In this document: in pieces, positions 1-51,523 of the stretch
Numbering within the stretch: position 1 is the stretch's first letter
How the letters are laid out: each line of letters begins with the position of its first letter
Source: Cyanidioschyzon merolae
Taxonomy: Eukaryota
Assembly: GCA_000091205.1 (NCBI GenBank)
Contig: AP006486.2
Length of the DNA stretch: 64,000 bases
Direction: 5' to 3' (one strand)
Notes under the pieces: model-generated
Told to the model about the DNA's origin: nothing
Databases searched by the model: none
Seen by the model: only the letters and a program-made list of their open reading frames with translations
Translations under genes and position numbers: made by a program

Positions 1-28
1 CCCCCATTCCCCCCATTCCCCCAATTTC
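1..28. repeat. Telomere-like C-strand repeats: three degenerate CCCCCCATT units (cccccatt cccccccatt cccccaatt) at the very start of the window
   Basis: Direct reading: 5'-cccccattccccccattcccccaatt-3'. The complement is AATGGGGGG-like, the telomere unit I recall for Cyanidioschyzon merolae. An AT-richer region with no genes follows to 3379. Confidence 0.45.
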
Positions 29-3000
29 CACGAGTCCTCGTTGCGCGGTCTTCTCGGGGATTCGTTTAACGGCGCTTAGCCTCGTTTGCGTTGCTGGCCC
101 ATGGCTTTCTCTTTTGGGATTGATTTCGCTAGGCATTGTCCAGTCATTGCTATCCACTTGCTTATTAGCTGGGTTCGATATGCGGCAGTGGGGACTTCGT
201 CTCACCGCAAACGTTTTTTTTGAATGTGTCTTCGACGTTCGTAGCGATCCTGGAAACGAATCTCTTGCTTACTTGCGCCTATTCCGCTTTCTATCCAGCT
301 GGCATATTTTTTGTGCATCTCCGACAGGTTATAGTCTCTTCACGTTCACCATGCTCCATTCTGTCAGCTTTCGTCCTTGTATGTCATTGCCATTTTATTC
401 CTGGGGCTCTCTTCGATGACGTTTGTACTTCAGCCTTTCTTCTTCTGCCGCCCAGGGGGTACAAGCTTCTGCTGATTTTCGCCGAAGACCTACGTTTCCG
501 TAGCCATGTTGTACTGCCCGGCCCTAATTTTACATCGGCAAGGGTGCTGTGAAACCGTTGGTATCGATCTTTTTTTGTATTTCCATATCCTGGTGTGAGC
601 CTTGTCTTTATGTCGTGGCTGCAATGCCCGAAACTGCTTTCTTCGTCTACGCCTTTGTTTATCTGTGGGTTTGCACTCCAGCGCTCGTTGGCGTCTCGGC
701 TGGACTGCCCAGACGCCTCCGAGCACCAACATATCTCACGGTTTGGCTGAGTCTTCCTTCCTCTGAACTAGCTTTTTCCGGTCCTGGCGAGTTCTTAGTA
801 CGGTGCTTCGATTAACTTCCGTCGTTGCACCTTTTTTCGCCCAACTTTTGGTGTTCGCAGCAGTAGATATACATGCATTTTTCTGTTTTGGACCATTTCA
901 AGCAGATATCACGTTGTGCGGCTTTTATGCGATGTAGAACGCCCTTTAATATTCATCATGGATTCCTTCGCCTTGCGCTACCCTTTAATTGTTTTGGTGA
1001 GCAACAGTATACATTTGTGGTTGTCTACGGAACGATACTGCAGTCGCGTGTAGTACTGTATTCTCCATAGACTGCAATTCGATCTTTTACCTCTGTCGCA
1101 CTGGTGCAGGGGTTGTTTCGACTCCTATCGACTCACCTGTGATCCGTATTGCTTGTGTTCCGCTTGCCACAAAATCCCCATTGTTGGGCCTTTAGAATCT
1201 GCGAGCAGAAGAACATGTACCACCAGATACCTTTTGCTTGTCGGGCATCAGATGCCCGCCTCTGGAATAGATATTGACTGCGTCGTGGGCTCCTACTGTG
1301 TTTGAGACTGTATGTACTCTGTAACATGCTCTGTCACCCTTTTTCATGGGCAAGATAACTCACACTATTATACCGCTTAGGAAAATGTGTGGCAGCAAAT
1401 ATGAGCGCCAAGATTCACGAATATACATTCAGTCCAGGCATATACTTTCAAGCGCAAGTCATTCAATTCTGGTTTACCATCGATGGATCCGCCTTCCCGA
1501 CCGCTTATTCGTGTGAAACTGGAATCCTTGGCTTCCGATGCGATATTCTCTTCCAGGGTTATCTCCATCTAAGTTCTCGAACTGGATATTCATCAGGACC
1601 TCATTTTCATCGCAGTACTGCAAGCTGCTATCCAAGGTTTTGCTTTTGTGCTTGGTGCCAGGCAGCTTTCGGTGCACAAGATGCCTGATCAGGCATTTTT
1701 CTCGTGGCGTACCCCTATCGGTCCAAAAACACTATTCCAACCATCATGAAGCAGACAGACAAGCTCTTTTGACCACTTTCAATATGCCAAGTCTATTGAC
1801 TATGACAAGCTACTGCATTAGCGATCCATTCACCTCATCTGCAAGCACCTACTTCATGGCCGCAACGAATGAAGCGTAAATTTGCTGTTCCGCCCGTCCA
1901 CTGCTGGTACTATCATTTGGCAGTCATCATGAAGCCCGTGGTATCCTTTCTGTATAGCTTTGCATCTAACTTCCGTCGCACCGGTGCTCGCAAGCGCGCC
2001 AGAGTCCAACGCACGCCCTCCTTTGCGATGCATACTACCCGAGGAAATCAACTCTGGCACCGTCTACAACGAAGAGCCCCGATCGCGCTGGCTATTCTTG
2101 CCTTCCGTCTACACTCAAGGCGATCCTGGTTGGCACTGCAGGGTCTCGCTAGTTTAGGCTAGCATCCAGGCGGGCGTCGCTTATTAAGATGATGTCCGCG
2201 ACAAGTACCTCAATCGTTTACACTATTAGTCGGTGGCCGCCGTGCTAAAATATTGCTGCGGTAGCCTTCATACAACAAAAGAAGCCGCAACTATATCAAT
2301 CGTGAAGCTTGAGACCTTTTTTAAAGGATACATCATATTCTGCATCTTGGTTGCTCCCTTAGCCGGAGGACAAGCCTCCATTCATCAGCAGTAGATTCAA
2401 TCATAGGGGATCTCGCAACGAACTTGCACATAATCGATAGGTACGGTTACAGAATGAGAGCTCCTAGGTTGCCTTCAATTCTGCTCGCCGTGCTGCGGTA
2501 ACTCTCACTTTGGCTAGATTCGCCCCCTGGATCCCGCTGTGTGCTCTATCTTGCCTCTACGCTTTAGCACGCTTGCGGCATGTCCATGGTCTTACAGCGT
2601 ACTTGCGCCCTCTGCTTGGAGTCATTTTCTCGACAACAAGCCCAAATCGGGGACTGGATCCCAACAGTGCGCTACAGTCGATTTTGTACACATTTTGTCC
2701 AACAGACAGCAGGCAAGAGTCTGAGAACTTCTGAGGCGACCCTTCCGCATTTGGAGCAGGCAACATGCGCTTTCGATGCTAGAGCTGTACGTGCGCTGTG
2801 ATGCTGGTAGCTCTGCGACTTTCTTACTCAGCGGTGCTGCAGCAGATGGAATGGATTCATTGATATATACGCTTACCCTAGGAATACCGTATTCTGGTGA
2901 AATGTTCAGTTGCACGGATCGAATTGCACTTGCTCTGGAACTACTATTCGTGGACAGAATCCATGCTAGTACATCAATCCTACAATGCTTACATCCGTTT

Positions 3001-3379
3001 GCGTCGTCGCAGCAAAACTCACTAGTCGCTACCTGTGCACCGGGTTTCCGGGGCAACGACAGCAAATATTTCCAAATCAACGACCTCGCCGTAAAAGCGA
3101 TATTCATAGGCACGCTCGTGCTCATAGGAAATCATTCCTTTACGTTCCGAGAGAGATTCCCAGTACAGTCGTTCCATGTGTATCGCCTCTGAATCACGCC
3201 CCCTCGGCAGGATTTCAGAGCGCTCTCCGCGCACCACTGTATCCGCATTCATTCATTCGTTCTTTCGTTCATTCATCCGTATTCACCGATCTTGTGTACA
3301 TGTCTGCAACATTGTCATTACAGAGGATCAGCATAGACATGATATAGACCTTAAACGACGTAATCGTCAACGCGCATAC

Positions 3380-6300
3380 TCAAGCAGACACTGAAGCTGA
3401 ACCCGAAACCGATGTTGACGCACTCGCAGACACCGCCGCAGAAGCTGTCGCAGACACCGTCGCAGAGGGTGTCGCTGTCGCAGCCACGGGACTCGGAGTC
3501 GGTGTTGAACTAATCACGACACACTGGTTGTTGATGCACTCCTCGTCAGCGCGGCAGCAACGCATCTTGTTCACAAGGTTATCCGAAGGGATCAGGTACG
3601 TCCCGCATTGCTTCGTAGGGTCCTTGCACACACAAAATGACGGCAGCAGCACCTGTTGTTGTTGCTGCTGTTGTTGCAATTGTTGCTGCTGTTGCAGGTT
3701 ATTGTTGTTGCTGAACGGGATGTACGTGCAGTTCTGCGTCTCGGCGTTGCAGCACTCGGGGCCGCATACAGTATAGCTCGAGTTCGATACGTTGCCCGTC
3801 GTGCCGCTCAGCGAGTTCGACACATACCCGTAGGTCTGGCACACGTACTCGGTTACCGGCTGGAAGCACTCGTTGCCGAGCCCCAGGCAGCAACCAGCCT
3901 CCAGACACTGCTGCGGCGCGTAGCTCGTGCGCTGCGTCCCGTGCTGCTCTCCGTACAGGAGCGTGTTCAGCAGACGCACAAACTGGTTGTTGTTGATGTT
4001 ATTGTTCAGCTGCTGGTTCTGATTCACCGCGTTCGTGCACGGCTGGCGCTCAAACTCGCCCACCGCGCACGTCTTCTCGGGCTGGAAGCAGTACGGGTTC
4101 GACTCAAAGTCGCTCTGCTGCTTGCCGTTCTGCACCCACTGGTTCTGCGCCTGCGAGTCGTAGCAGCAGCCCTGGGCATAGCACGTAAACTGGTTGATAC
4201 CCGCGTTGCCGCACGGCTGGCGCTGCGCTCCCGGTGATGGGCAGACGGGTACTGGTGCCTGCACCTCCTGCAGCGCTACAGAGGCCTGCGGTGCATGGTT
4301 GATGTCGTAGTAGCACCAGGGTGCCAGGATGCCGTTTGCCGTTGGCTGCCAGCAGCATCCCGGTATCGCAGTGCACTCGTCTGGATAGATATAGCTCCAG
4401 CCGCAGGGGACGCGCTGCGTCACTGGAACAGCGCTGCACGCCGCTGAGACGCTCTTCAGGGTGCACGCGTTCGTCTGGGAGTTAAAGCAGCACCCGACTT
4501 GCTCGCAAGCGTCCTGGTTTGTGTACTGGCCCGGAGAACCGCAGATTTCACTCGTGCAAACTGGTGTTGGCGTTGCACTCGGTGTCGGGGTTATAAAAGC
4601 AAGTGTCGCACCAGAGGGTAGAATTGTAGAAACCTGGTCGGTGAAAGTTTGAAGCACACTTTGCAGTTCACTGGCGAGGGATGTGTCTCCTGAGATCGTA
4701 ATCACATAGGTCACAACACTGCCGCCCGCAGTGCGCACCAATGCTCGTTCCAGACGAAGATTGCTCTTGTCTAATGTGGTGGCGAGGCGCCTTGATGTGC
4801 CCGAACCGAAGACCGTGTCGCAGTTATCAGTCACGCTGACATTCACTACCTGGCCCGTGAAGCGAGCCTCGAGATCGTTCTGCAAATCCGTCGCCACGGC
4901 CAAACACAGAGAAAGATTCTGAACGGATATCGCAATCGAGGTGGAAATCGTCGTCGGCACGATTGTTGGTGACGTTGTTGCAGTTGGAGTCATCGTCGGC
5001 GTCATCGTCACTGTCGTTGGAGACGCTGTTACAGTAATCGTTGGCGATGATGTAATTGTCGGAGTTAACGTCGCAGTCAGTGTCGGTGTCGGTGTAGGTG
5101 TCAATGTCGGTGTCGGTGTCGGTGTCGCAGTCGGTGTCGGTGTCGGTGTCGGTGTCGCAGTCGGTGTCGGTGTCGCAGTAGCAGTTGGCGTAATCGTTGG
5201 TGTCAGAGTTGGCGTTGATGTTGGCGTAGGCGTAGAGGTAGGCGTAAAGAACGTTTCACTCAGTGCGAAAACATCATTGAGATAGCCAGGTCCGCTAGTG
5301 ATTGAGTATCCAGATCCGCCAAATAGGATCGGATCGGTCCCACTTGTATTCCAGAAAGCTGGTCCAAAGCGACCACCAGGTACAACACTCGGGTCGGATT
5401 CGTTGAAAACTCCATATACTGAAAGAGCATCCACACTTTGGCTTCCATTGATCCACGCCCACTGACCAAGTGTGATATCAAATACCCACAAATCGTTCAA
5501 ATCACCGGGGCTCTCACGAGTATTCCCATATCCTTCACCACCAAAAAGTAGCAGATTACCCAAAGAATCCACAAAACTTACGCCTGAGTCTCTTGCACCT
5601 GGGTAACTGGTTGGGGAGAAAGCACCGATAGTTCCATAAGATCCTGGATTATTAATAGTGGTATTTCCTGCAATCAAAAGCCATACGGATTGACTTATGT
5701 TGTAGACCCAGAGATCATTCAAGTCCCCTTGCCCTAGTGCTGTGCTGTTTCCGTAGCCATAGCCGCCGAACAACCAGAGATTTCCTTCAAAATCTGTCCA
5801 CGTATGCGAGAAGCCGCGCGCACCTGGAGCATTTGAGTTGCTCGCCACGCCAGGTGCACTATAGTTACCAGGATGGTTAACAAGTTGTGATCCGCCTCTG
5901 TATGCCCATTCGAATGTAACAGGGTTGAATGACCAAAGATCTGACAGCAAATTCCCCGCAATATCCTCACCACCAAACAACCAAAAAAGACCATCCGCAC
6001 CCAGCCAGAATGCCACGCTATCTCGGCCTCCGGGGTTGTAAATTTGACTGTAGATATCCTTCGGTCCATAGACTGGATTGGCGTTAAAAGTATCATTCCC
6101 ACTGAACCACGTCCAGATTCCCGTTTCAGTATCGTACCGCCACATGTCGTTCAGGTCTCCCGCATTACCGTTCACATCAAAGCCGTAGCCACCAAACAAC
6201 CAAAAATGGTGCTCGTCCGTCTGCCAATATGCGCTAGACTGACGGCCGCCGGGTATATTATTTGGGCTGCCTGTGCCGACTGTGCCGTACACTCCTGGTT

Positions 6301-6664
6301 GGTCAAGTTCTGAGGAACCTCCTATCCATGTCCACTCGAGCGAGGTCAGGTTGAATTTCCACAGATCATTAAGGAGGCCCTTTGCTGTGTTTCCGAACCC
6401 GAACCCGCCAAACAAGTACACTACGCTCGAACTTCCGACCCAGGCTGCAGAATAGTAACGGCCTCCTGGAACACTCTCTGGAGACGTCTGGTTCAACGTT
6501 CCATACCTGCCAAAGTTACCAGTACCCGTCTCTCCTCCTATCCAGGTCCAGCTAACCGTACTCACAGGCGACAACGCAGCCACAAGCGACACGGAAAACG
6601 TCGCCGCCAACAATAGACAAACAGCTACTCCCAGGGCACGCGCCAGAGAAAGAGCTCGAAACAT
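3380..6664 (-). CDS. Secreted mosaic protein: N-terminal signal peptide, multi-blade Kelch/galactose-oxidase-type beta-propeller, Thr/Pro-rich mucin-like linker, 3-4 trefoil (P-type)-like Cys-rich modules, poly-Gln and a Ser/Ala/Thr-rich tail
   Basis: 1094-aa uninterrupted ORF. Hydrophobic N-terminus [21 protein letters not shown]. Repeated Kelch-like blades (GGR..S/H, W.FGG.G, LNDLW motifs). A ([12 protein letters not shown])n linker is encoded by a (GTCGGT)n hexamer array. Cys modules such as [34 protein letters not shown] and [20 protein letters not shown] match the trefoil pattern CG..(I/V)...(E/Q)C....GCC(F/W/Y)...PWC. Confidence 0.7.
5075..5180. repeat. Hexanucleotide (GTCGGT)n array inside the Kelch/trefoil CDS, encoding the Thr-Pro linker
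   Basis: Direct reading of ggtgtcggtgtcggtgtcgcagtcggtgtcggtgtcggtgtcggtgtcgcag... Confidence 0.7.
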
Positions 6665-9590: not shown

Positions 9591-10515
9591 CTATCCCCCA
9601 TCCGTATATTTGCCACGCCACTGATAATACGAGTCCGAGTCCGGGAACTGTCCCTGGGGCGCCACTTCGGCTACGCGGCGGCCGGCCTCATCATTCGGAA
9701 CGTATTGCCGAGTGATATACTTCTGAAGAATCGGGATGAATACGTAGCGGAACCAGCCAAGCTTTTCGCGGTAGAGGTTGCTATCGGCGACAGATCCCGG
9801 GAAAATCGCCACAGAGGTCACCCCGTCGCGGCCGTATCGATCACTGAGCGCCTTCATTGTCAACACGTTCTCGGCTTTGGCGTCTTTGTAGGCTTTTGTG
9901 GGCTCAAACGGACCACTGCCTACCATGCCAGTCGTCTGCGGATCAAGCCCCGCGCCTAGACCAGACAAATCGCCGAGGCGAGCCCGCGGGGGATCGTTCC
10001 CGGCAGCGAATTCGGCGAGTGGGTCTGAGTCGTCGGAACACAATGTGCCCGCGCGATACTTTCAGCTTCGGCAACAGCTCCCGACATAGAAGCAAATGGC
10101 TCAGATGGCATACCTGCATGGTTTCCTCGATGCCGTCCACCGTGAAACGCGGTTTCTTGTCCCGCGGATGCCAGATTGCGGCATTGCAGATCAGGGCATC
10201 CAGGTGATCGACGCGCGCCACACTTGACAGCTCTCTCACAAACTTTAGTACAGAGGCGAAATCAGCCTGACCACAACGGAGCACGGTATAGGCGTCCTTT
10301 AGAAGGTTCACGCTGTTTGCTGCGCGCTCCGCCCGGTCGACGTCACGACATGCCATGACGATGTGCCAGATGCACTTGTTGATCAGAGCGTGAGCTGCAT
10401 ACAGACCGACTCCAGAGCACGCGCCCGTGATCACGGCGATCTGCGACTGTTTCGGGCCATTACGAAGATGCAGCGCGTGGTGCCGGCGCGCTACAGGCGA
10501 ACGCTGCATTACCAA
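9591..10515 (-). pseudogene. POR: Light-dependent protochlorophyllide oxidoreductase (LPOR, SDR family). The body is split over two overlapping ORFs in different frames (9943..10515 and 9591..10043), i.e. a frameshift. The upstream presequence frame also contains an in-frame TAA.
   Basis: The N-part IAVITGACSGVGLYAA...WHIVMACRD...LICNAAIW matches plant POR (VITGASSGLGL...WHVIMACRD...LVCNAAVY). The C-part PRARLGDLSGLGAGL...AYKDAKAENVLTM...GVTSVAIFPGSVADSNLYREK...FIPILQKYITRQYVPNDEAGRRVAEV matches PKANLGDLRGLAGGL...AYKDSKVCNMLTM...[25 protein letters not shown]. The switch between frames falls within about 2 codons, which leaves no room for an intron. Confidence 0.6.
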
Positions 10516-12189
10516 AGGAAGAGGACGCTGGCGGTGGTGACGATGTCCAGCTGCGAAGCAACCGTCACGAGCGGTACCCAGTGCGAACGGTGCTCTGCGT
10601 ACAGCAGGTGAGCGAACTACTCTTTAGCCCTGGTACAGCGGATCAGAGACAAACATGCCTTGTACTTTCTTGGGTTAGGTCGTCTCCGTGCGAAAGCTGC
10701 CGATCACGTCATGGGCTAGAATCGATCGCGTAAGTGTGCGTATCCAGTCAAAAACCTGTTTTGCGTAGCTGCACGAGTGATCTTCCGTCGAGTGGTGCAG
10801 ATGCCAACCTCAATCTCCGTAGACTGTCTAACTTGGAGCACAACCCGCACAAGCGCTCAACGTCAATCTCAGAAACTAGGTTAAACTCGCAGTTTTCCGA
10901 GCAACAATCTCGTCAGTACTAGTCGCAATGCGTTCCGCAACGTTGAGTTCAAAGATCACAATGATCGTTGAGGAACGTCGCTGCAGCTCACCGATGAATA
11001 ACGTAGCGGAGGTACAAGAGACTAACATCCGGTGGTAGTTTTTTTGGAAGCGCCTGCACGTCAGTTGGACACGTTACGTCTAGGGCGGGTCACTCGCCAC
11101 TACTGTACACGGCCGACGACGATGTTTTTCTTTTCAAGGGCATGTGTAGTTGGTTGTGTCGCTTCCGGGCTCGCTGTACTGGTTAGGCTCTTGAATCTAA
11201 TCTTATAGAGTAGATCAGAATACAGTATGTGCTTTTGTCGGATGCCTCGATCGTTCAAGGCGAGATGCAATGCTCAAACGTCGTGGCAGATATAGATGCA
11301 ATATGTTAGCTACGCCTCTGCCAAGATCACCGGATCAATTGACGTAGCGGGGACCATAAGTTAGACAACGAAGCAGCATGGCAATGACCTGAGCTCTCAT
11401 CAGTACCAGCCCCTGACGCAGGAAAGAAGCACAATTCAGGCCAGTTCTTTATTCCGGTGTCCGTGCAGGATGCATAGCAAGCCTAGGGAATAAACTTATA
11501 TCCGTGTTCGAGAACACTACCGTACCTATTACGGTTACGACCAATACAACTGAAGAAACTCTTATTGAGTAGAGTGTTGCATATCTTATCCACACAAGTG
11601 CAAGCCGCAGAGGAAGATACGCGTGTGATAGAAGCATCGCGGGGTATCGTTCCAGGCCCCTGCATCCCCTTGTCTGGCAGGGCAGTGCTGCGATGGGCAG
11701 CAGCGTCGGCACCAGCGACATAACCTATAGCAAGAGTGCATTCTACGGGAGTTTCCAGTCTACGATACCTTATGTTTTGCGGCAGTGCGATGCGAACACG
11801 CATGTGCCAAGGCGGGGTGTCGGACACGTGTCCTTCATCGATCGGAGTAGCGTTTCGCGCAGTGCACGCATCGCGCTCGGTGAGTGCACCTCGGGGATCA
11901 GACAGACATGAGACACGACGCGCGTGCCGCTGTTCAAGGGAAACGTGATCTCGATCAGAAGCGTGTTGTTCAGCTGTAAAAAGTTGGATTTCCGTTGAGG
12001 ACATAGCAAAGTAGAGTTTTCCTTTCGTTTTTGTTCCGAAATTAAACCAGACTAGTCAAGTGTTTTTTCGCTGTATATAACAGAAGCGTTCAAAGAGCGT
12101 TCTTTTCAAAAAAAGGAAAGCTATCACAGAGCAAGTCCACGATCCTGGAGGCCCAGGTTCGCAGGCTGCCAGAAAAAGAACATAAAACG

Positions 12190-14330
12190 GTGTCGAGTCC
12201 CGAAGAAAAGGAAGAGAAGAAGGACCGAAAGCAGGAGGCCCTACGTCGAAGGCGGCAAGAAAGACGACTGTACGACGAGAATATGGTGAAAACTTTCTTT
12301 CTTGGACATATCAAGGATCCCTGTAGGGAAAAGTTGCGAGACGCCATTGAAAAACGTGTTGACTCGTACTCGAAGAGTATTGTAAAGACGTTTTCAGGAC
12401 TAATGCATTTGGCGAGGGAGATGTATCGCGACGTAACGCAAATGGAAACAGTCGATGTTCCTGACGCGTTCTTCGATAGGACATGTATTCGATACCTGAT
12501 GCTTGGCACAGCGGAAGCGCGGAGGGAAACTCAGCTAGTGTATGCCCTCCACGAAAAGTTCGCGGAATTCCGCTCCGAGGCTACCCGACACAGGGGTGAA
12601 TGTTGTATTTACGAATACATGGCAATGGGGTGCCTCACGAATGTGAGGAGCCTTAAGATCTTAAACGTCGTTTCGTTCATGATACGCGTTCTCTTTGCGC
12701 TCTACCCGTGCCTTTTTCGGGAAGGGATTCGAGGAACCATCGATGGTATCAAGAACGATTCCCAGCATGAACGGGATATGAACTTTGTTGAGAAGAGGAC
12801 ATCACGGTGGAGAAAGAACGAGGCTTCTGTTCTCCGCTCTACCATTTAAAGGCATCGTTCGGTCTTGGAGCTTGGCACCCCAAGAGAAACACTTTCAGAT
12901 ATGAGAAAAGAAGAGAGATGTTCCCCCCCTCATCCTGCCTCACTTCATGTTATTTGACCGAGAACTCCGACGGAAGGCCCAAATAGAGCTAAGTATGGAA
13001 AAAATGACGGGTGGGAGAAACGGCATTGAAGTGGTTTTCCAGAAGCGCTTCAATTTCGTTTTTTATGCGAGTTCAAGTCGCATTTTGTGATTATCGACTG
13101 TAGAGGCCTTTTACGACTTCATGAAGGAGATCTATTTAGAGCTCGATGTAATAAACCGAGAGGTCATCGGCGAAAACAGGGACACCGACTAGAAGATTAT
13201 TTTCGATATCACGTGTCTCGAACCGGCCAAAAAAGGTATTCCAGCGGACAATCGATTTCGATATTGTGTACATAAGTGTACATCAAATGCTGTTGCAGGC
13301 ACTTCATCCTATCCCGTCTTCGTTATCGCCCTTGCCGAAGCACGAAAACAAGAAGACGGGCCGCGAAACGCATAGTCCCCATGAAAACGGCTTTGTCGTC
13401 GGCCCTAGCCCCTGAAACACGAGTATCATGACCTTTGCTGTACCCAAGCGTGAGTGCGATGGCACTGACCGAAACTCACGTCAGAAAGACAGCAGGATTT
13501 TGGGGATCTCACGAGAGAAATACTACCAAGAAGCGGGAATCATGAATGCAAGCAAGAAAATTGAGACATGAAATGCAGGAATGAAGGATCTCCTGGAATC
13601 TTTGAGCGAGGTGACGAGCCGAGAAGCGGATTTTGAAGCTTCTCGGAAATTCATAGAAGGTTCGCGTTGCTCATTAGGAGGTACTGTGGAAAGAATATAC
13701 AATGCCCCGGTGGGCTCGAATGCGAATGAATCTGGACTGTGGTAAGCAGCGGGCATTTGCGAATTGTTTCAGCCAGTTGTGCCCTGGAGGAGGATCAGAG
13801 TCAGATGCTCATTGTAGCGTATGGGGCAGGGCGCTGGAAGACCCAAAAAAGGTTTACGCCAGCTCCATCGACAAGAACATATAAGGAGTGCGCAAGGCGA
13901 TTCGTTACGATATAAGTAGATGAGCTTCGAATGACCTATACACACCATAAAGTGGGGTGCACACTTCAGAGAGTGGAGATGGAAAAGTGCCAGCGGAGCC
14001 CTGGGGAAACAGCAAAGTACGGACAGCTGACGAAAGAGCAAATGGAAAGAAGAGCCAAGTTCGTGGACTAGTTGCATTAGTGAGTACAACCCGCAACGGC
14101 ACGAAACAGATAGAGTTTGGGGATCGAGACTTTAACGCCGCCATCAATGGAAGGAAATGCGCGGTGCTGGAGAAAAGACCTCCAAAGTGGACACGAGGGA
14201 TCTTTATTGGACAACCTCTCAGAGTCGAACTATATGAGAAAAAAATTGGAAGCAGTCGTGGGTGGCCGGTCGAGAAAGACTGAGATGCGTTTGCACGTCA
14301 GCTGGAGACTTCTTGTCTAGGGCGCCGGTC
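12190..14330 (+). mobile_element. Degraded TnpB/Fanzor-like (IS200/IS605 OrfB family) element relic. A KR-rich N-terminal ORF (12190..12849) is followed by broken frames and a C-terminal RuvC-III-like motif at 14119..14182.
   Basis: ORF 13957..14283 encodes ...KQIEFGDRDFNAAINGRKCAVLEKRP, matching the TnpB/Fanzor RuvC-III signature (D.NAA.NI..RG). A second paralogous relic lies at 49959..50960 with nucleotide identity 24/25 over cgagacNttaacgccgccatcaat. The region is an AT-richer island and the usual CxxC...CxxC zinc finger is absent, suggesting decay. Confidence 0.4.
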
Positions 14331-14439
14331 ACCACTACTGTACACCGCTGGCGGCTACAACGTTATTCTTTTCAAAGACGTTTGTTTCCAGGGATGAATA
14401 CTGAGCGTCCACAGCAGCACACCTCTCCTTCGAACGCGT

Positions 14440-17400
14440 CTAGTTCATGAAACCGACACAACCCGGCTCGCCGCATAGACATGGGATTTTCATCGCATTG
14501 TCTACGTCGAACATGTAGTTGTAGGTCAGCTCCTCGCCGCGTTTAATCGCTCGAGCGCTGCGAATAACAATCACATCCTGCTTCGGTTCGTCGCTGATTC
14601 GCAGGATTTCGCTGTAGCAATTCGGACGACAAGAATGGTTAATATAGCGTGCGACGCTCCCAATCATTGTCGCATCAATCACCCAATCAGCATCTATACG
14701 AAACATGTAGCACCCAATGCCACGGCGCTCGTAGTGGCGCTCCCGAACGTCGGCCACTGGTGAGGCAATCCGCTCTCCAGCGTACTCAACGATCATCTGA
14801 TCGGCTTGGAGGTCACAGCGCGCAAACAAACCGAACCCGTGGATTCGAGAGCGCAACGGAACACAGTACTTGCGGTGTTCGAGCTGCATCTGTCGATACA
14901 GCCGACGATCAGTTGCCGTTGCAGAGACTACTCGCCAGGCGTCTCGCCTTGGAGGCACACGATCCTGCTCTGGACGTGATCGCAGTGCGCTGCACGCCCG
15001 CTCTGCAGACCCCGGGATATCGGATGCAGCTGATCGCTGTGCAAGGAGCGGGTCATATGCTGCTCCCGCTAACGCACGCTCAAACACTTCCAGGGATCGA
15101 TGCACAGGTGCAAGCTTACTCCATTTTGACTCGTTACTCGGGCGCAAGTACAGGGAACAACGTGCTGCGCCCGCGGATCGCGCTGTCGGGGATGCACCTC
15201 CGACGTCGTGGTCCGGAGAGGTATCCGCGGGCACCGACGCCAACATGCTCGTGGCTAGGTGCTGCACCAGCACCGGCACAGGGCAAAAGAAGCGCTCCGC
15301 AAGTGCCTGACGTTCTTCTGTCGATCGTTCAGCGATGCACTTGGTGAAAAGATGCGTCAAGCGCGCCGGAAGACGCGCTGCCCACAACCGCAGCACACGG
15401 GATATCATCTGGTGCCATAGCGCAGTGATGCACACGCCACTTAACCGATCGTGCGGTGCATCCAGAGCGCACAGCGAGTACCGCGGCTCGTGCGCTACGT
15501 CCGCTGTGCAACTGATAAAGTAAAGCGTTCGTTCAAAGGGTCGGATCATACTCCAAAAGCGCCGCGCTAGGTAACAATCTGGCGGCAGTCGCCACTGAGC
15601 TTCTGTCGATTCCAGCGATGTGCAGTCCAGCGCACCGTAATCGAGCAGTGTCCAGGCACCGACTCGCAATGCTGGTCTCGCATTTAGCGACAAACCGCGT
15701 ACATCCGACGGCAAAGAGTGACCCATACTCGAAAAGGGAAAACTCCACCCCGAGGGTGCAAGTCCAGCTGTCGCCTCGCGACCAAGCAGCGAGCGATGCT
15801 TCCAACACCAGCACAGGCTGCGATGATCGGAGCATTCCCACATAGCATCAGCACCAGCAGCGTTAGCATGTGTCGCTACACAGCGTACGTGAAAGACTTG
15901 GGTACAGCCCAAAAAAGAGCAGAACACAGAGGCACCCGTACGACGACACACAGAACACTTTCTGGACAAGGCAGCTTGTATCGTGCGAGAAAGGCCGGCT
16001 CCCGTTTGCGTCGACAGCGCCAAACAGCCCATGTGAATCCAGCGCAGGGTGCTTTCGGAGAGTCGCAATGGCACCAGACATCCGAGCTGCGCGCTTTCAC
16101 CTCGCTCGGGGCAAGCACATAGCGCACAACGCCGACAATCGGGAACCGCACAGAGACGCGACCACACTAGGTGCTCTGCTTGTAACGCATCTGGTGTAGC
16201 ATGTGGCGCTTGAACCCCAAACGAGGCGGATACACGCTGGCCCAGCGGCCGGCAGACAGTGACTTCAGGCACTGGGTCACGAGTTCCGTATTGGCTTAGT
16301 GAGGTATCGTTCCCCATCAAACACACCGTGTTCTCCTGCACTCCAGTTTCTGCTTCACAATTCGCAAGCATCATGTGCGCATCGATATACACCGAGTTTT
16401 GCGAATGAAGATGTTCTGCTTCGAAGGAGTTTTCCTGCTTCATCACGAGCGGCGTCCGATCGGTGCCCTCTATCCGCGTACCTGAGGCCAAGTGCGAAGC
16501 GAACGCTCCGTCTTGCACGCTCGTCAAAGCGCACGCGCCCAATGGTAGCTGTGCCTCGCACGATACATCCCGCAACCGCGTTCCCGCGAGGCAGTCTCGT
16601 AAAGGGTCTGCGCACTCAGATTCCATAGCGTCCGCATTGCACGCTAGAAGAGGTGCCTCAGAGACACGCCCCTGGCCTGAGGAGCTGCTCACCTTCGGCG
16701 AACGTGAGCAAGCAGGGCCCGTTGCCGCCAGCGTACCGGGAACATGCTGTCGCTTGACCTGATCGCCAGGAAGCGTACTGGTTGCGTTCGAGGTTGCTGC
16801 TGCTGCTGCTGCTGCTGCTGCTTCACAATCACCGCAAAGCAGCAGTGGCATAGCACCGCCGTGGCCGCTATCCAGCCGCCGACCGCAGACAACGCACGGT
16901 ACGGACGAGAGCGTCAGCAGCCACGGAGGCTCCTGAACGGAACTTGGCTCACCACGCTGCAGAACTTGCATCGAATCCCGTTTCCATGCATTCGATTCTG
17001 AGGCATCCTGTCCCGTGTTCTTTGACGCAACGGCTGCATAGGTGCCCGCCTCCTGTTCGACACCGGCTCTGTACGAATTCCTCGGCAAAGGCAAAGCACG
17101 TCCAGGGGTATCCACCTCCGGATAAGGAACGCGCTCCGAGCCTCCGCCTCCGGTGATGCGTCGAGAAGCGGCAAAAGAAGCAGCGCCGGCAGCAGCGAAC
17201 GACACAGGTGGCCTGCGCTTCACAGCGCCAAACGCGGAGGAGTCAGGTACGGCCTCGTTATCCATACAGGGCGCTTGCATCGAGTGATCGACCTCCAGAG
17301 GCACCTCCGAGTCGTTATGCTCGGTTCCTGTGTTCCATAGAACCTGTTCGGACCGTTCTATACTGGATTCGGTTGGTGTTCCTTGACGATCCGCAGGGTG

Positions 17401-20172
17401 ACAGGATGATTCTGCTTCAGGTACAGATGGCAGTGGTATGGAGACGGCGCAGCTGGTACAATTCGGGATCACGCGAATCGGACCCAAGTCCAGCAGATGC
17501 AGCCGACCTGAAGACGACTCGTACTGCTGCTCTTGATGCTGGCATTCCGCGTGATACGCCTCGCCACAAAGCCAGCAAAAGAGCGCCGATGCGCCTGATT
17601 CGTCCACGGTGCCATGACACAGCGCGCAAACATCCCGCTCGAGCGGAATCAGAATTCGGCAAGGAATCAGCGGATCGACTTGAGGTTGAGGAGGTACTTC
17701 CCAGTCGAGCACACCCATCACCTGGGCGTTAGTCTGGTACTCGAGTTGTGCGCGCTCATCGTGGACAACGGAGCGATCATGGCAGCCTGAGTCGATGCGT
17801 TCGCTTGGCGTTCGACACGGTGCAACGAACAGACTACCCGGCTTGCCCGGGACGTTACTTTCGGAAGCAGTCACCTGAGAGCCTGCAGCTGGCGCCGTCT
17901 CTGTGGCAGCGGCCGCGGACAGCGACATCTGGACAAGACTGGTACCCTCGGATGGAGTAGATACTGTCATCAGAGCGTCTGCAGTGACAGCGGATACTCG
18001 CTTTGCCCTCTTGGTCCCATCCGGGCGTGAATGCAACCGAGAGCGTTCGAGTGCCTCCAGCGTGCGCTCCGCAAACGTTACCCAGGACAATGGCTCACAG
18101 TCACCGAACTGAAGCTCTCGTGTGAGCTCCCACAAGCGGTAATTCTCCTGCTCCGTAGTGGCCTCCGAGTGGTGACGACGCTTCCTTTGCCTGCCGGTCA
18201 CCGAATTGCGCTTACCAAGTGCATCATCACCGCGAAACTGAACCTGGGCAACAACACTGCCTCGAGGTGTCTGCAGTGCAGTATCCTGCGGAACCTGCCG
18301 GGAAGCGCGCTCCCCGTTTGCTGATTCCCCTCTGCCGAAACGTACACCGCCGTGCTGCTGCAGTTTTCTCGAAAAGTTTAGCCGCATCACAGCGCTTACC
18401 TGGGACGCTCCAGTCTCCTGCCCCACTGAGTGGCCGCCTTGTCTAGAGGAGAGCGCGTTTTTGGAGTCCCCGGAAGCGCCGCCACCAGCACCGGAAGGAC
18501 CGGTGTGCGTCGCCACCTCACGATCGTACACCTCGACGGGTACCGAACAACGCGAGACATTCCTCGACTGCCCTGTACGAGCGCCGTAACTCGGTTCAAC
18601 GGTACACTCGGACGCGCATGAGGCTCGAAGCTCCGCAAAATCCTTCACAGCGCTTTCGTTCGATGCAGCGGGACTGCTGGTCAGCGCAGATGCCAAGTGA
18701 GCTCGCTCCGGCGATGTTACAGCATCTTGTTGCTGCAAGCGTCGACGAGAAGCTGTATTGACAAGGTGCGTATCCGGACAAGCGTCCGGACGGCGTTTCC
18801 TGGACTTTGTGGGTCGTCTCGCTCGCACAGGGACCGTTTCAATCGCCAAAAATGGACTGTGGAGCTGGAGATCAGAGCGCTTACCACCATCTCCACCACT
18901 GCGAGGTTGTTTGTCGGGATTGTATGTGGCCAGAGGGCGAAGTCGCTCGCCCTGGTGTTCCATGTTCGCAGGCGAGACTTCCGGGACACGCTGGACAAGA
19001 GCGGCGTCAGTTTGTATTTTCTTCATAATCAAGCGCTTTCTCTTGGTGCTCGCATCGTCACAAGTGTTTTGCTGCATCAGCGGCGTCTGTGAATACCAAC
19101 TAGCAGGCGCAGCTAGCGAGCCAATGATATGAGAAACCTCCCGGCATACGCGAGACTTGCGCTGCGGGTGCCTCTTCCATGCAGGTCCACGGTTTGCTGG
19201 AGACGGCACTGCTGGCGTCGCGGTTGCCAGTCCGGTATGGCGGTGGCGGTATTGCTTCCGCCCGGTTGCTGTTTGAACAGCGTGCCCGGTATCCATGCCG
19301 TGCTCATTGTACACCTGCAAAGCGTCACGGCTATCGTTGTGCTCGATTTGCTTCCAATCGCGGGCACCAGACTGTCGTCCGCGACTTGTCCATGAATGCG
19401 TAGACACTGCTTGAGCATTCTCGACACCTGCTGCTCCGTTGCCGCGCTTCAAGCGCCGCTGCGACGGCGCTCTACGAGCGCTTCGCTCAGAAGACGCTTT
19501 GGTTGATTCTGGGGGTGCACTTGCCGTTTCATCCCGACGTTTTGCAGCCAGATGCTGTCGATCCTTTGCAGTGGACACGCTCGCATCAATGCATCCATTC
19601 GGGGATGCGTCTCTTCGAACAGCACGGCCCTTGACAGCCTCTAACTGAACCAGCAGATTAGCGCTGGCCGGCACATCGAGCGTGGCAAGCTCCGAGCCCC
19701 TAAAAAAGCCACATTCCTCAGCGTCCTTCCGGTGAAGACAACAAAAAACCTGTCGTCGTCGCTTACACACAGCAGCACCAACTTTCAGTGCACAGCGCAG
19801 GTGGTAGTACGTCCAGCAGGTTCTCGGACTGCGGTAAGCGCAGGTGATGGTCCCACCAGGTTGTCCACAAACACTGCAGCGAATCGAGTTGCCCCGACGC
19901 ACGACAGAGCCCACCAGGAGCTCATCGATTTCGTTTCGACCCTGACACTCGGCACTGAAGCGCACACACTCTTCATGTACATAAATAGGTTTCTTTGCTG
20001 GTGGTTTGGGTTTCAGTGGCCCCAGTAACTTACCTTCTATACCGCTTGCGTCCTGGTCTAGGCCGCACAGTGCACAGCGTACGCTATCCGCAACGTGCGC
20101 TCCATCCTTCCGTCGACGAGGATTCGCCGGTAACAACTCAGACTTTGACCTTGGACAGAGGCGTCGTGGCAT
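14440..20172 (-). CDS. Histone-lysine N-methyltransferase of the KMT2 (SET1/MLL/Trithorax-like) type: several PHD and extended-PHD fingers, and a C-terminal SET plus post-SET domain
   Basis: The C-terminus ...GIGCYMFRIDADWVIDATMIGSVARYINHSCRPNCYSEI...RGEELTYNYMFD...IPCLCGEPGCVGFMN carries the SET motifs NHSC and ELTYNY and a post-SET CxCxxxxC. PHD-like fingers include CALCHGTVDESGASALFCWLCGEAYHAEC and CSVCGQPGGTITCAYRSPRTCWTYYHLRCA. The ORF is 1938 aa with the track start at TTG 20256; the first in-frame ATG is at 20172. It contains a (GCT)n/poly-Gln tract near 16794-16822. Confidence 0.8.
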   Translation of the reverse strand: MPRRLCPRSKSELLPANPRRRKDGAHVADSVRCALCGLDQDASGIEGKLLGPLKPKPPAKKPIYVHEECVRFSAECQGRNEIDELLVGSVVRRGNSIRCSVCGQPGGTITCAYRSPRTCWTYYHLRCALKVGAAVCKRRRQVFCCLHRKDAEECGFFRGSELATLDVPASANLLVQLEAVKGRAVRRDASPNGCIDASVSTAKDRQHLAAKRRDETASAPPESTKASSERSARRAPSQRRLKRGNGAAGVENAQAVSTHSWTSRGRQSGARDWKQIEHNDSRDALQVYNEHGMDTGHAVQTATGRKQYRHRHTGLATATPAVPSPANRGPAWKRHPQRKSRVCREVSHIIGSLAAPASWYSQTPLMQQNTCDDASTKRKRLIMKKIQTDAALVQRVPEVSPANMEHQGERLRPLATYNPDKQPRSGGDGGKRSDLQLHSPFLAIETVPVRARRPTKSRKRRPDACPDTHLVNTASRRRLQQQDAVTSPERAHLASALTSSPAASNESAVKDFAELRASCASECTVEPSYGARTGQSRNVSRCSVPVEVYDREVATHTGPSGAGGGASGDSKNALSSRQGGHSVGQETGASQVSAVMRLNFSRKLQQHGGVRFGRGESANGERASRQVPQDTALQTPRGSVVAQVQFRGDDALGKRNSVTGRQRKRRHHSEATTEQENYRLWELTRELQFGDCEPLSWVTFAERTLEALERSRLHSRPDGTKRAKRVSAVTADALMTVSTPSEGTSLVQMSLSAAAATETAPAAGSQVTASESNVPGKPGSLFVAPCRTPSERIDSGCHDRSVVHDERAQLEYQTNAQVMGVLDWEVPPQPQVDPLIPCRILIPLERDVCALCHGTVDESGASALFCWLCGEAYHAECQHQEQQYESSSGRLHLLDLGPIRVIPNCTSCAVSIPLPSVPEAESSCHPADRQGTPTESSIERSEQVLWNTGTEHNDSEVPLEVDHSMQAPCMDNEAVPDSSAFGAVKRRPPVSFAAAGAASFAASRRITGGGGSERVPYPEVDTPGRALPLPRNSYRAGVEQEAGTYAAVASKNTGQDASESNAWKRDSMQVLQRGEPSSVQEPPWLLTLSSVPCVVCGRRLDSGHGGAMPLLLCGDCEAAAAAAAAATSNATSTLPGDQVKRQHVPGTLAATGPACSRSPKVSSSSGQGRVSEAPLLACNADAMESECADPLRDCLAGTRLRDVSCEAQLPLGACALTSVQDGAFASHLASGTRIEGTDRTPLVMKQENSFEAEHLHSQNSVYIDAHMMLANCEAETGVQENTVCLMGNDTSLSQYGTRDPVPEVTVCRPLGQRVSASFGVQAPHATPDALQAEHLVWSRLCAVPDCRRCALCACPERGESAQLGCLVPLRLSESTLRWIHMGCLALSTQTGAGLSRTIQAALSRKCSVCRRTGASVFCSFLGCTQVFHVRCVATHANAAGADAMWECSDHRSLCWCWKHRSLLGREATAGLAPSGWSFPFSSMGHSLPSDVRGLSLNARPALRVGAWTLLDYGALDCTSLESTEAQWRLPPDCYLARRFWSMIRPFERTLYFISCTADVAHEPRYSLCALDAPHDRLSGVCITALWHQMISRVLRLWAARLPARLTHLFTKCIAERSTEERQALAERFFCPVPVLVQHLATSMLASVPADTSPDHDVGGASPTARSAGAARCSLYLRPSNESKWSKLAPVHRSLEVFERALAGAAYDPLLAQRSAASDIPGSAERACSALRSRPEQDRVPPRRDAWRVVSATATDRRLYRQMQLEHRKYCVPLRSRIHGFGLFARCDLQADQMIVEYAGERIASPVADVRERHYERRGIGCYMFRIDADWVIDATMIGSVARYINHSCRPNCYSEILRISDEPKQDVIVIRSARAIKRGEELTYNYMFDVDNAMKIPCLCGEPGCVGFMN

Positions 20173-20699
20173 CGACGCCAGCACAAGTGCTAGCGTCAAT
20201 TGCGGACTTCGCTTCCTCCCGACACGTTTAGGTACAAGTAGCCAACTACCTGACAACAGCGAGACCTAGAGTTTAACGAAAACGCAGCACACGTCAACTC
20301 CAGTGGACTCAACTGCGCTCTAAGTACCGAGCGATACCAACAGACCTGCACTTGATCAGGTCCTCCCTGTATACCACCAAAGTCTGGAGGTTTTCCCCAG
20401 ACCAAACGACACCACGACAACCCGTAGAGGCGAATAGCGCGCGCAAAGCCTTTCTTGCCGCTTCGTACTCGGCAGTGCGGCGCCAAAAGGGTACGCGCTG
20501 AACCTGCAACTGCGTCGCCTTTGCTGGGCAGCGATATATGCGCTTTGCCCAGCTTTTGGCACTGGACAGGTCTCCGGGCACGCTGTTTTGCAGTTCAAGG
20601 GCCAACATCGGCACGGACGCTGTGCAACAGCGGCACTTGGGGCCTAACGCTGTCCTCCCGTGACTGGCACGACCCCGGACTGGTTTGCGCTTTTCGAAG

Positions 20700-29100: not shown

Positions 29101-30056
29101 AAGTGCAATACCGCAGTTCCGGGCTGGCAGACGTAAACTACGACATGTCGAAGAACGGCGTCTAGGATACGAACGAACCTTCCATAGGTCCATGACCGTA
29201 GAGTTGGCGTTCGGCATCAGAGAAGACGCCATCGACTGGATTCAACGAGGAGATATGTGCCGGCACCAAGAGCAGTGCAACGCGAAGCGCAGCAGTGTGC
29301 TCCACGACTTCTGTTGCATGATGATAAGCGACGTTGTCATCGACCAGAACAGAGGAATGTGAGATGGAGAATCTCCAACGTGCTTCACTAAAAATATGCG
29401 ATATTGGATGACCCTGTACGAATGGACATTTCGAGGCGACCACAGCACTGCATCGTCGCAGAGTCTGACGTTCACTTCAGGCTCACCTGTCCCCTATTTG
29501 CGAACAGCGGTTTGCCGCTCTTCGGGTACCCATATATTACAGATGTGCCAATTGCTCCTGAATGAAGTCTCACTGGGTGATAGGACCACCCGTCTTTTCT
29601 ACGATAAGCGTTCGCGTTTTGGTTCGAACTTCATTGTGTATTGCCCAATGCAAGACGATCTCCGACACCTGCGCACTTTTTGCGTAGTCCAGTGATGTCT
29701 CTTCATCACTGTTCGTATTAACAGCATGGAAGCATCGCGTCTGGACATTCCTTTGATATTTTTCAATGACCATTCCGACTGAAGTGGATTGACGGGGTCA
29801 TCGCGCAGATAGACGATGATAAGCGCTGTTCTGGGTACACGACGAGCGCCACTTGGACTAGGTGAAGCGTGGTTCACCCACCTGCTGACCACAGAATAAC
29901 TGAGTTGTTGTGAGATGCAGATCCTGCATCGCAACCCAGCACAAGGTGCCGATGTCTTACCGCGGGCATTCACCAACCCACAGGATACATGCCTTTTATT
30001 GAATACCTGAGAAAAATCAACCGAAACGAAAAGCGCGTGCTGGTACAGATGGCCCA

Positions 30057-30226
30057 GAATTCACTGCTCTTCATATTACACGGTCACTAGAATGCGACCA
30101 GGTTGCACGTACCACAGAAAATGCAGCAACGTACGCTGCCAGAATTCACTGCTCTTCATATTACACGGTCACTAGAATGCGACCAGGTTGCACGTACCAC
30201 AGAAAATGCAGCAACGTATGCTGCCT
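30057..30226. repeat. Two tandem copies of an 85-bp unit (98% identical) just 3' of the WD40 gene
   Basis: gaattcactgctcttcatattacacggtcactagaatgcgaccaggttgcacgtaccacagaaaatgcagcaacgta(c/t)gctgcc occurs at 30057-30141 and 30142-30226. Confidence 0.85.
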
Positions 30227-50960: not shown

Positions 50961-51523
50961 AACCGATAGCAGGGGGCCTGTCGAAACAGACGGGGAGGCA
51001 TCTGTGATTGCATACTCATTTACCGTCCATAGATGTGAACCGTTGTTCGCTTCACTGGAACATAGTCCAGAACGCGGGCGAACACGTGAAAGTGCGCTGC
51101 CTCATCTAGTTGTCATGAACATGAGCGTCTGTGAGATTTCTCTGGACTGCTTCCTTCCCAGCTGGGTCATTTCCGGGACTGGATACGCTGGTGCTTCGTG
51201 TCCCGCCAGCTACGATGTCAGCGCTAGCGTGACGATTACGCAGTTCCCCGCAATTGCAGACGCATTTCGTTACCAGGCAGAGGTTGTGATCTATGCTTCG
51301 CTTCTCACTTTCGTCTACTTTGTAAAAAGCCTCAATGCGCCTTTCGCAACGATGCCACCTGACTCAGGTCGATTGTTCCCAAACGTTCACGCCAACTCCA
51401 CTGCCAGGCGGTGCACTGTGGCGAGTGACGGCTTGCTTCAGGACCCAGAACATCTCAGAGGCGGATACAAAAGGCTTCTCTCGATAGTCTCCCCGGCTCC
51501 GGGTCCAATGCCTTACTCCATGA

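What the first reader, a model, noticed from the sequence alone, without database searches (positions are those of the whole stretch)
1..3379. Window appears to start at a chromosome end: telomere-like C-strand repeats plus a 3.3-kb gene-less AT-richer subtelomere
Positions 1-28 read CCCCCATT CCCCCCATT CCCCCAATT, the complement of AATGGGGGG-type telomere units (the unit I recall for Cyanidioschyzon merolae). The next ~3.3 kb is AT-richer than the rest and has only short, unconserved ORFs. Subtelomeres are where duplicated genes, pseudogenes (see the LPOR frameshift copy) and mobile-element relics accumulate, which fits what follows in this window.
Basis: partly seen in the sequence, partly recalled or inferred. 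Interest (0 to 1): 0.5.

Follow-up and report, generated by a model that had tools for sequence, protein, structure and literature searches.

The report
Known red-alga chromosome end (telomere)

Summary
Bases 1-28 are 2.9 units of CCCCCCATT, the C-strand of the AATGGGGGG telomere of Cyanidioschyzon merolae. Window coordinates equal those of NC_010130.1, chromosome 4 of strain 10D: the published GFF places its first gene, CMD002C (Kelch+trefoil), at 3380-6664(-), exactly the window ORF, and annotates nothing in 1-3379. Three proteins further in are 100% identical to 10D proteins on a 513,455-bp contig. Published tables already list chr4 18-14396 as a duplicated subtelomere with content 'KT,<P>'. 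Four hot-spring metagenome contigs carry diverged copies (82-94%) of 1-3600; three join telomere repeats at the same junction and the fourth starts in a poly-C run. The stretch has 48.5% GC against 55.1% for the window, but so does all non-coding DNA out to 14.4 kb. Two details are not in the papers I read. First, about 1 kb next to the telomere has T about twice A on the C-strand, and so did every end of this clade examined, across sequence families with no detectable similarity. Second, one 167-codon ORF (2622-3125, minus strand) stays open in diverged copies with dN/dS near 0.5. Verdict: already known, low interest.

The parts
1..28 (+). Innermost telomere repeats, C-strand: CCCCCATT, CCCCCCATT and the variant unit CCCCCAATT. 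This is the complement of AATGGGGGG. The assembly holds only this stub; the real array is reported as 400-700 bp.
   Evidence: Literature: PMC1955436; PMC13353863. It aligns with perfect CCCCCCATT arrays at the ends of metagenome contigs L017, L025 and L050.
29..1100 (+). Telomere-adjacent T-rich, A-poor domain (A 16%, T 36%, C 26%, G 22%; AT skew about -0.4). This is the fastest-diverging part of the subtelomere.
   Evidence: the skew exceeds every one of 308 interior 1-kb windows. The same skew occurs at ends with no sequence similarity to this one. Identity to relatives is lowest here.
1101..2621 (.). Non-coding spacer.
   Evidence: In L017, L025 or L050 these ORFs carry stops or frameshifts, and substitutions show no codon periodicity. 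There is no Pfam or Rfam hit.
2622..3125 (-). Conserved 167-codon ORF, a candidate small unannotated gene. Its antisense shadow ORF at 2776-3192(+) shares the same wobble positions.
   Evidence: 14 metagenome protein clusters at 67-97% identity, most of them 160-167 aa. dN/dS is 0.45-0.5 against 1.4-2.9 in the other two frames. Against a gene: no Pfam hit, AlphaFold pLDDT 41.7, and absence from the 10D GFF v2.0.
3246..3276 (+). (CATT)n microsatellite about 100 nt beyond the stop codon of the Kelch+trefoil gene.
3380..6664 (-). CMD002C, a secreted Kelch + trefoil (K+T) protein. It is the first annotated gene of the chromosome, with its 3' end towards the telomere.
   Evidence: Pfam Kelch and Trefoil hits. 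GFF coordinates are identical. Best named relative is the Cyanidiococcus K+T gene, the last gene before a telomere.
9591..10515 (-). Frameshifted protochlorophyllide oxidoreductase-like (short-chain dehydrogenase) pseudogene, the '<P>' of the published table.
   Evidence: adh_short E = 4e-15 on 9943-10515(-); the sequence continues in another frame at 9591-10043(-). Listed as 'KT,<P>'.
11815..14353 (+). Degenerate copy of the dispersed repeat CMe-1A, which encodes Fanzor1 (a TnpB-like protein). It is the inner edge of the subtelomere.
   Evidence: tblastn with the published CMe-1 consensus gives 12175-14002 in four pieces across three reading frames, E = 1e-130. Related copies lie about 1.2 kb from the telomere in other end contigs.
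14440..20256 (-). CMD005C, a SET/Trithorax-like gene. It is the first gene beyond the published subtelomere boundary at 14396.
   Evidence: The annotated start is at 20172.

Best explanation
The window is positions 1-64000 of chromosome 4 of Cyanidioschyzon merolae 10D. Bases 1-28 are the innermost units of the telomere, read on the strand whose 5' end is the chromosome tip. Telomerase adds AATGGGGGG to the complementary 3' strand. The natural array is 400-700 bp, but end-cloning and Sanger sequencing recovered only about 2-3 units per end. Bases 29-3379 are telomere-associated DNA with no annotated gene. They form the outer part of a roughly 14.4-kb subtelomere that is duplicated among chromosome ends and carries a Kelch+trefoil gene, a dead protochlorophyllide-reductase copy and a decayed Fanzor1 repeat. 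Shown here: the sequence, its identity with chromosome 4, the junction and the duplicated family. Taken from the literature: array length, telomerase synthesis and H3K27me3 cover. Inferred: that the 3.3 kb acts mainly as a fast-evolving spacer between the telomere and the first gene.
For: Repeat units at 1-28. AATGGGGGG is the telomere unit at all 40 C. merolae ends, at most about 2.5 units were sequenced at any end, and arrays measure 400-700 bp by Southern blot. Three proteins are 100% identical to 10D proteins BAM79109, BAM79113 and BAM79114 on a 513,455-bp contig, the published length of chromosome 4. GFF v2.0 of NC_010130.1 lists CMD002C at 3380-6664(-) and CMD005C at 14440-20172(-), identical to the window ORFs, with nothing annotated before 3380. 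Cho 2023 Suppl. Dataset 5 lists the chr4 start subtelomere as 18-14396 with 'KT,<P>'. Independent metagenome contigs L017 (94%), L025 (85%) and L050 (84%) start with perfect CCCCCCATT arrays and join the same sequence at the same point. A Cyanidiococcus chromosome end has 8 such units beyond a K+T gene in the same orientation. H3K27me3 covers 36 of 40 ends, and 4L is not among the exceptions.
Against: Only 2.9 units are present and the innermost is a variant, so on sequence alone this could be an interstitial relic. I could not fetch the 10D chromosome itself, so identity of position 1 rests on matching gene coordinates and the published telomere-to-telomere claim. 'Gene-less' is weakened by the conserved ORF at 2622-3125(-).
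Confidence: 0.96

Rival explanations
1. The 3.3 kb is not gene-less. ORF 2622-3125(-), or its antisense partner 2776-3192(+), is a small lineage-specific protein-coding gene that belongs to the duplicated subtelomeric block.
For: 14 diverged metagenome variants, most keeping a 160-167-codon frame. dN/dS is 0.45-0.5 against 1.4-2.9 in the control frames. The ORF always lies downstream of a trefoil gene wherever the contig reaches that far. Locus number CMD001 is unused in the GFF.
Against: No homologue outside this one end family. No Pfam domain. AlphaFold pLDDT is 41.7. The codon-usage score is near zero. It is not annotated in 10D. The pairwise comparisons are not independent, and the signal cannot tell the two strands apart. 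The distant hits of the plus-strand ORF are unrelated repetitive bacterial adhesins.
Confidence: 0.3
2. The repeats at 1-28 are an interstitial telomere-like relic or a chance match, and the chromosome continues to the left.
For: Only 2.9 units, one of them imperfect.
Against: Expected chance matches are 0.03 per window. Gene coordinates equal those of the telomere-to-telomere chromosome record. Three independent contigs end in longer perfect arrays at the same junction. The published subtelomere starts at base 18.
Confidence: 0.02
3. The sequence comes from Cyanidiococcus yangmingshanensis or another alga with the same AATGGGGGG unit, not from C. merolae.
For: Cyanidiococcus has the same unit and the same GC content.
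Against: Proteins are 100% identical to 10D proteins. The best Cyanidiococcus K+T protein is only 64% identical. GFF coordinates match 10D.
Confidence: 0.01
4. The first ~1 kb is a functional or mutational module tied to the telomere, not neutral spacer. It could be, for example, the template of a TERRA-like transcript, or the footprint of end replication or C-strand fill-in.
For: T is about twice A on the C-strand for about 1 kb at every 9-mer-type end examined: families A, B and C, L118, and the two Cyanidiococcus ends L006 and L134. These families share no detectable similarity. For 8 of 10 ends the skew lies beyond the 99th percentile of interior windows, and the sign is always the same.
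Against: Only about six independent sequence families were sampled. There is no expression or mutation data. The one Cyanidium end examined lacks the domain. Subtelomeric strand asymmetry is already described in other eukaryotes (paper list, titles and abstracts only).
Confidence: 0.4

Closest known systems
Telomere and subtelomere of C. merolae 10D chromosome 4, left end (Nozaki et al. 2007, PMC1955436; Cho et al. 2023, PMC9812998, Suppl. Dataset 5)
   Same: It is this very locus. The unit AATGGGGGG is the same, the published subtelomere is 18-14396 with content 'KT,<P>', and the first gene CMD002C lies at 3380-6664(-).
   Different: Nothing differs. Here I add independent metagenome copies, the divergence gradient, the 1-kb T-rich domain and the conserved small ORF.
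Cyanidiococcus yangmingshanensis chromosome ends (GCA_026122185.1 contig 4 right end, L006; contig 3 right end, L134)
   Same: The 9-nt unit is the same, and L006 has 8 units at the contig end. A K+T or K+Hog gene is the last gene and points towards the end. A gene-free 4-6 kb follows, and the last kb has the same T>A skew on the C-strand.
   Different: The spacer DNA shows no detectable similarity to window 29-3379. There is no ORF167 homologue. L134 has no telomere array at the contig end.
Yeast-type subtelomeres (core X / Y' elements)
   Same: Blocks are duplicated among chromosome ends, carry fast-evolving gene families and mobile-element relics, and lie in repressive chromatin.
   Different: No element is common to all ends; Nozaki 2007 reports eight element types and nine unique ends. 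The repressive mark is H3K27me3. No origin or ARS function has been shown.
Fanzor1 element CMe-1A (Bao & Jurka 2013, PMC3627910)
   Same: Window 12175-14002 matches the published 734-aa consensus at 51-80% identity, E = 1e-130.
   Different: The copy here is frameshifted and dead. The family is dispersed through the genome (about 150 copies; further relics at window 27.9-28.2 kb and 50.65-50.98 kb) and is not specific to subtelomeres.

Membership tests
AATGGGGGG-type telomere of Cyanidioschyzon and Cyanidiococcus | Tandem 9-nt unit CCCCCCATT/AATGGGGGG | tested here: met
   1-26, period 9, 2.9 copies; two canonical units (the outermost truncated by the record start) plus the variant CCCCCAATT. 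The unit is as published.
AATGGGGGG-type telomere of Cyanidioschyzon and Cyanidiococcus | Lies at the physical end of the chromosome, with the C-rich strand running 5'->3' inwards | tested here: met
   Window coordinates equal NC_010130.1 coordinates. The published subtelomere starts at base 18. The orientation is as expected for a left end.
AATGGGGGG-type telomere of Cyanidioschyzon and Cyanidiococcus | The same subtelomeric sequence joins a repeat array in independent isolates | tested here: met
   L017, L025 and L050 begin with 3 or more perfect units and align to the window from the junction inwards.
AATGGGGGG-type telomere of Cyanidioschyzon and Cyanidiococcus | Array of several hundred bp maintained by telomerase (RNA template CCCCCCAUU) | not testable with these tools
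   The assembly holds only 28 nt. The 400-700 bp figure comes from the Southern blot in Nozaki 2007.
Duplicated subtelomeric element of C. merolae, type 'KT,<P>' | Kelch+trefoil gene and POR pseudogene next to the telomere | tested here: met
   Pfam Kelch and Trefoil on 3380-6664(-). adh_short on the frameshifted 9591-10515(-).
Duplicated subtelomeric element of C. merolae, type 'KT,<P>' | Homologous DNA at other chromosome ends of the same genome | tested here: inconclusive
   The other 10D ends could not be fetched. One metagenome sample holds three distinct copies at 94%, 85% and 82.5%, while its interior DNA is 98.9% identical to the window; several strains could also explain this. The literature states conservation between chromosomes.
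Fanzor1 / CMe-1A repeat | Significant similarity to the published CMe-1 consensus protein | tested here: met
   tblastn E = 1e-130 over consensus residues 18-629, in four pieces across three reading frames. Pfam, NCBIfam, PHROGs and PDB sequence searches found nothing.
Protein-coding gene (ORF 2622-3125, minus strand) | Reading frame kept and non-synonymous changes suppressed in diverged copies | tested here: met
   Most of 14 variants are 160-167 aa. dN/dS is 0.45-0.5 against 1.4-2.9 in the other frames. The signal is weak and is shared with the antisense ORF.
Protein-coding gene (ORF 2622-3125, minus strand) | Recognisable domain, confident fold, or homologues beyond close relatives | tested here: not met
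   No Pfam hit. pLDDT 41.7. Homologues occur only in family-A ends.
Protein-coding gene (ORF 2622-3125, minus strand) | Transcribed and translated | not testable with these tools
   No expression data can be read for unannotated DNA. The ORF is absent from GFF v2.0.

The most novel reading that the evidence does not exclude
Every chromosome end examined in the Cyanidioschyzon/Cyanidiococcus clade carries, directly inside the telomere, a roughly 1-kb domain in which the C-strand has about twice as much T as A. This holds although the underlying sequences fall into about six groups with no detectable similarity. That would point to a telomere-linked process with a fixed length scale, such as a TERRA-like transcription unit or biased end-replication or fill-in synthesis, that shapes DNA composition. 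A conserved 167-codon ORF in the spacer may also be an unannotated subtelomeric gene.
Probability: 0.3. Interest if true: 0.45.

Novelty: already known. Interest (0 to 1): 0.12.

Why it matters
It matters little as a discovery. This chromosome end, its telomere unit and its duplicated subtelomere were published in 2007 and re-tabulated in 2023 and 2026. The result is useful as a check: a reader working from sequence alone named the organism and the structure correctly. The two side observations are cheap to test in an organism with a tiny, complete and genetically tractable genome. If real, they would offer a simple system for asking how telomere proximity shapes sequence composition.

Tried and rejected
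- Exact-protein look-ups of the K+T protein, LepA and two spacer ORFs found no record, so the 10D chromosome itself could not be fetched.
- Most of the 120 metagenome hits to the two-unit telomere pattern were chance internal matches in unrelated samples. Only about 15 were terminal hits of Cyanidiales type.
- Rfam at relaxed threshold gave only two sub-threshold chance hits, both inside the K+T gene. No tRNAs were found.
- Decayed telomere repeats were rejected as the origin of the T-rich domain: G is 22% and there is no 9-nt periodicity.
- A universal core element shared by all ends was rejected: no similarity between end families, with reversed-sequence controls clean.
- Distant hits of ORF 2776-3192(+) were heterogeneous bacterial adhesins and are taken as spurious.
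- AlphaFold models of ORF167 and of the Fanzor-like protein were too poor (pLDDT 42 and 39) to justify fold searches.
- Pfam, NCBIfam, PHROGs and PDB sequence searches did not recognise the Fanzor-like repeat. It was identified only by comparison with the published consensus.
- tblastn found no K+T or Hog gene relics in 1-3379 or 6.7-9.5 kb.

Full report
**Observation.** Bases 1-28 read CCCCCATT CCCCCCATT CCCCCAATT. Tandem Repeats Finder reports 1-26 with period 9 and 2.9 copies. CCCCCATT occurs nowhere else in the 64 kb. A two-unit pattern with up to three mismatches matches only at 9-26, against 0.03 matches expected by chance.

GC of 29-3379 is 0.485 against 0.551 for the whole window. The non-coding stretches 6665-9590 and 10516-14439 have 0.487 and 0.494. 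The AT-richer zone therefore runs to about 14.4 kb, interrupted only by a gene and a pseudogene.

No ORF in 1-3379 exceeds 167 aa. The longest stop-free run is matched by 9% of shuffles. Pfam, Rfam and tRNA scans find nothing there.

**Identity of the locus.** AATGGGGGG is the published telomere unit at all 40 chromosome ends of Cyanidioschyzon merolae 10D (PMC1955436).
- At most about 2.5 units could be sequenced at any end, although Southern blots indicate arrays of 400-700 bp.
- The same unit occurs in Cyanidiococcus. Cyanidium has a 10-mer (PMC13353863).

Three window proteins are 100% identical to 10D proteins BAM79109, BAM79113 and BAM79114: coatomer epsilon, ubiquilin and LepA. They sit on a contig of 513,455 bp, the published length of chromosome 4.

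The decisive evidence is the GFF v2.0 in the supplement of PMC13353863. It lists, on NC_010130.1, the first gene CMD002C at 3380-6664(-) and the next gene CMD005C at 14440-20172(-). These are exactly the window ORFs. The window is therefore chromosome 4, positions 1-64000, and nothing is annotated in 1-3379.

Cho et al. 2023 (PMC9812998, Suppl. Dataset 5) list the chr4 start subtelomere as 18-14396 with content 'KT,<P>'. The chr5 start has the same content, and the other end of chr4 has 'POR,KT'. H3K27me3 covers 36 of the 40 ends, and 4L is not among the exceptions (PMC5405695).

**Independent sequence evidence.** I scanned metagenome contigs for two telomere units. Most hits were chance internal matches. 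About 15 were terminal hits from hot-spring samples.

| Contig | Identity to window | Window span |
|---|---|---|
| L017 | 94.3% | 1-3601 |
| L025 | 84.9% | 1-2864 |
| L050 | 84.4% | 1-4591 (then 79% over 5145-6713) |

All three contigs begin with perfect CCCCCCATT arrays and meet the subtelomere at the same junction.

Interior contigs from the L017 sample are 98.9% identical to the window. That sample also holds a third copy, L128, at 82.5%; it starts in a poly-C run rather than in telomere units. This fits several paralogous ends, although mixed strains cannot be excluded.

Divergence is greatest next to the telomere. Identity in the first 600 nt is 85-88% for L017 and 66-71% for L050. It rises to 99-100% (L017) around 1.5-2.4 kb.

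In Cyanidiococcus (L006) a Kelch+trefoil gene is the last gene, with its 3' end towards the end of the contig. About 6.2 kb of gene-free DNA and eight AATGGGGGG units follow it.

**Anatomy of the subtelomere.**
- **1-28:** telomere stub.
- **29 to about 1100:** T-rich domain.
- **1101-2621:** spacer whose ORFs are broken in relatives and show no codon periodicity.
- **2622-3125(-):** conserved ORF.
- **3246-3276:** (CATT)n microsatellite.
- **3380-6664(-):** CMD002C, Kelch plus trefoil.
- **9591-10515(-):** frameshifted short-chain dehydrogenase, the POR pseudogene.
- **About 11.8-14.35 kb:** a dead copy of the Fanzor1 repeat CMe-1A. It was identified by tblastn with the consensus published by Bao & Jurka (PMC3627910): E = 1e-130, four pieces across three reading frames.
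- **14440 onwards:** the SET-domain gene CMD005C.

The Fanzor-like family is dispersed. More relics lie at 27.9-28.2 kb and 50.65-50.98 kb. In another family of end contigs a copy sits about 1.2 kb from the telomere.

**Two things not in the papers I read.**

*The T-rich domain.* On the strand that continues the telomeric C-strand, the first kb has A 16% and T 36%, an AT skew of about -0.4. None of 308 interior 1-kb windows reaches this value. The same skew, always of the same sign and lasting about 1 kb, occurs at every 9-mer-type end I could examine: sequence families A, B and C, the singleton L118, and two Cyanidiococcus ends.
- These families show no detectable similarity to one another, with clean reversed-sequence controls.
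- It is not decayed telomere repeat, because G is 22% and there is no 9-nt periodicity.
- The one Cyanidium end examined lacks it.
- Subtelomeric strand asymmetry is described in other eukaryotes, judging from titles and abstracts only. The kind of feature is therefore not new, and its cause here is unknown.

*The conserved ORF.* ORF 2622-3125(-) has 14 metagenome relatives at 67-97% identity, most of them 160-167 aa. dN/dS is 0.45-0.5, against 1.4-2.9 in the other two frames.
- The antisense ORF 2776-3192(+) shares the same wobble positions and scores 0.5-0.6, so the coding strand is not settled.
- There is no domain, no homologue outside this end family, and no confident fold (pLDDT 41.7). 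It is not annotated in 10D.
- I rate it a possible small gene at about 0.3.

**Verdict.** Both the observation and the interpretation are correct, and the feature is already described in the literature, so interest is low. The most novel reading that remains is that the 1-kb compositional domain reflects a telomere-linked process, and that the spacer holds an unannotated gene.

Noticed in passing
window 29-1100; also L006, L134, L008, L027, L052, L085, L114, L118, L124 (first kb inside the telomere array): A domain of about 1 kb has T about twice A on the telomeric C-strand. It appears at every AATGGGGGG-type chromosome end examined, although the sequences fall into about six groups with no detectable similarity. 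It is absent from the one Cyanidium end examined (L133).
   Followed up: partly
window 2622-3125 (-), overlapping 2776-3192 (+): A 167-codon ORF in the 'gene-less' spacer stays open in most of 14 diverged metagenome variants, with dN/dS about 0.5. It has no domain, no confident fold and no annotation. Locus number CMD001 is unused in the published GFF.
   Followed up: partly
window 11815-14353 (+); relics also at 27884-28180 (-) and 50651-50977 (+): These are frameshifted copies of the Fanzor1 (TnpB-like) repeat CMe-1A of Bao & Jurka 2013. In other end contigs (L008 with three copies, L027, L045, L052, L060, L113, L124) a copy lies about 1.2 kb from the telomere.
   Followed up: yes
window 1-3600 versus L017, and window 33380-54325 versus L001 (same metagenome sample, Ga0078972): The subtelomere is about five times more diverged than interior DNA of the same population (5.7% against 1.1%). 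Divergence is steepest in the 600 nt next to the telomere.
   Followed up: partly
L133 1-200 (Cyanidium caldarium contig 6, left end): Eight CCCCCCCATT units are followed by a C-rich tandem repeat of about 35 nt (AACTCACACCC..CCCGATCCCACCC). This subtelomere design is quite different from that of Cyanidioschyzon.
   Followed up: no
window 58589-58888 and 62976-63275: A 300-nt direct repeat at 98% identity, 4.4 kb apart, flanks the LepA gene region.
   Followed up: no
window 30054-30223: A perfect-looking tandem duplication of an 85-nt unit (98-99% identity) lies just downstream of the WD40 gene.
   Followed up: no
L128 (window orientation), first 70 nt: This family-A contig begins with a poly-C run of about 33 nt instead of telomere units. 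It may be an assembly artefact or a degenerate array.
   Followed up: no
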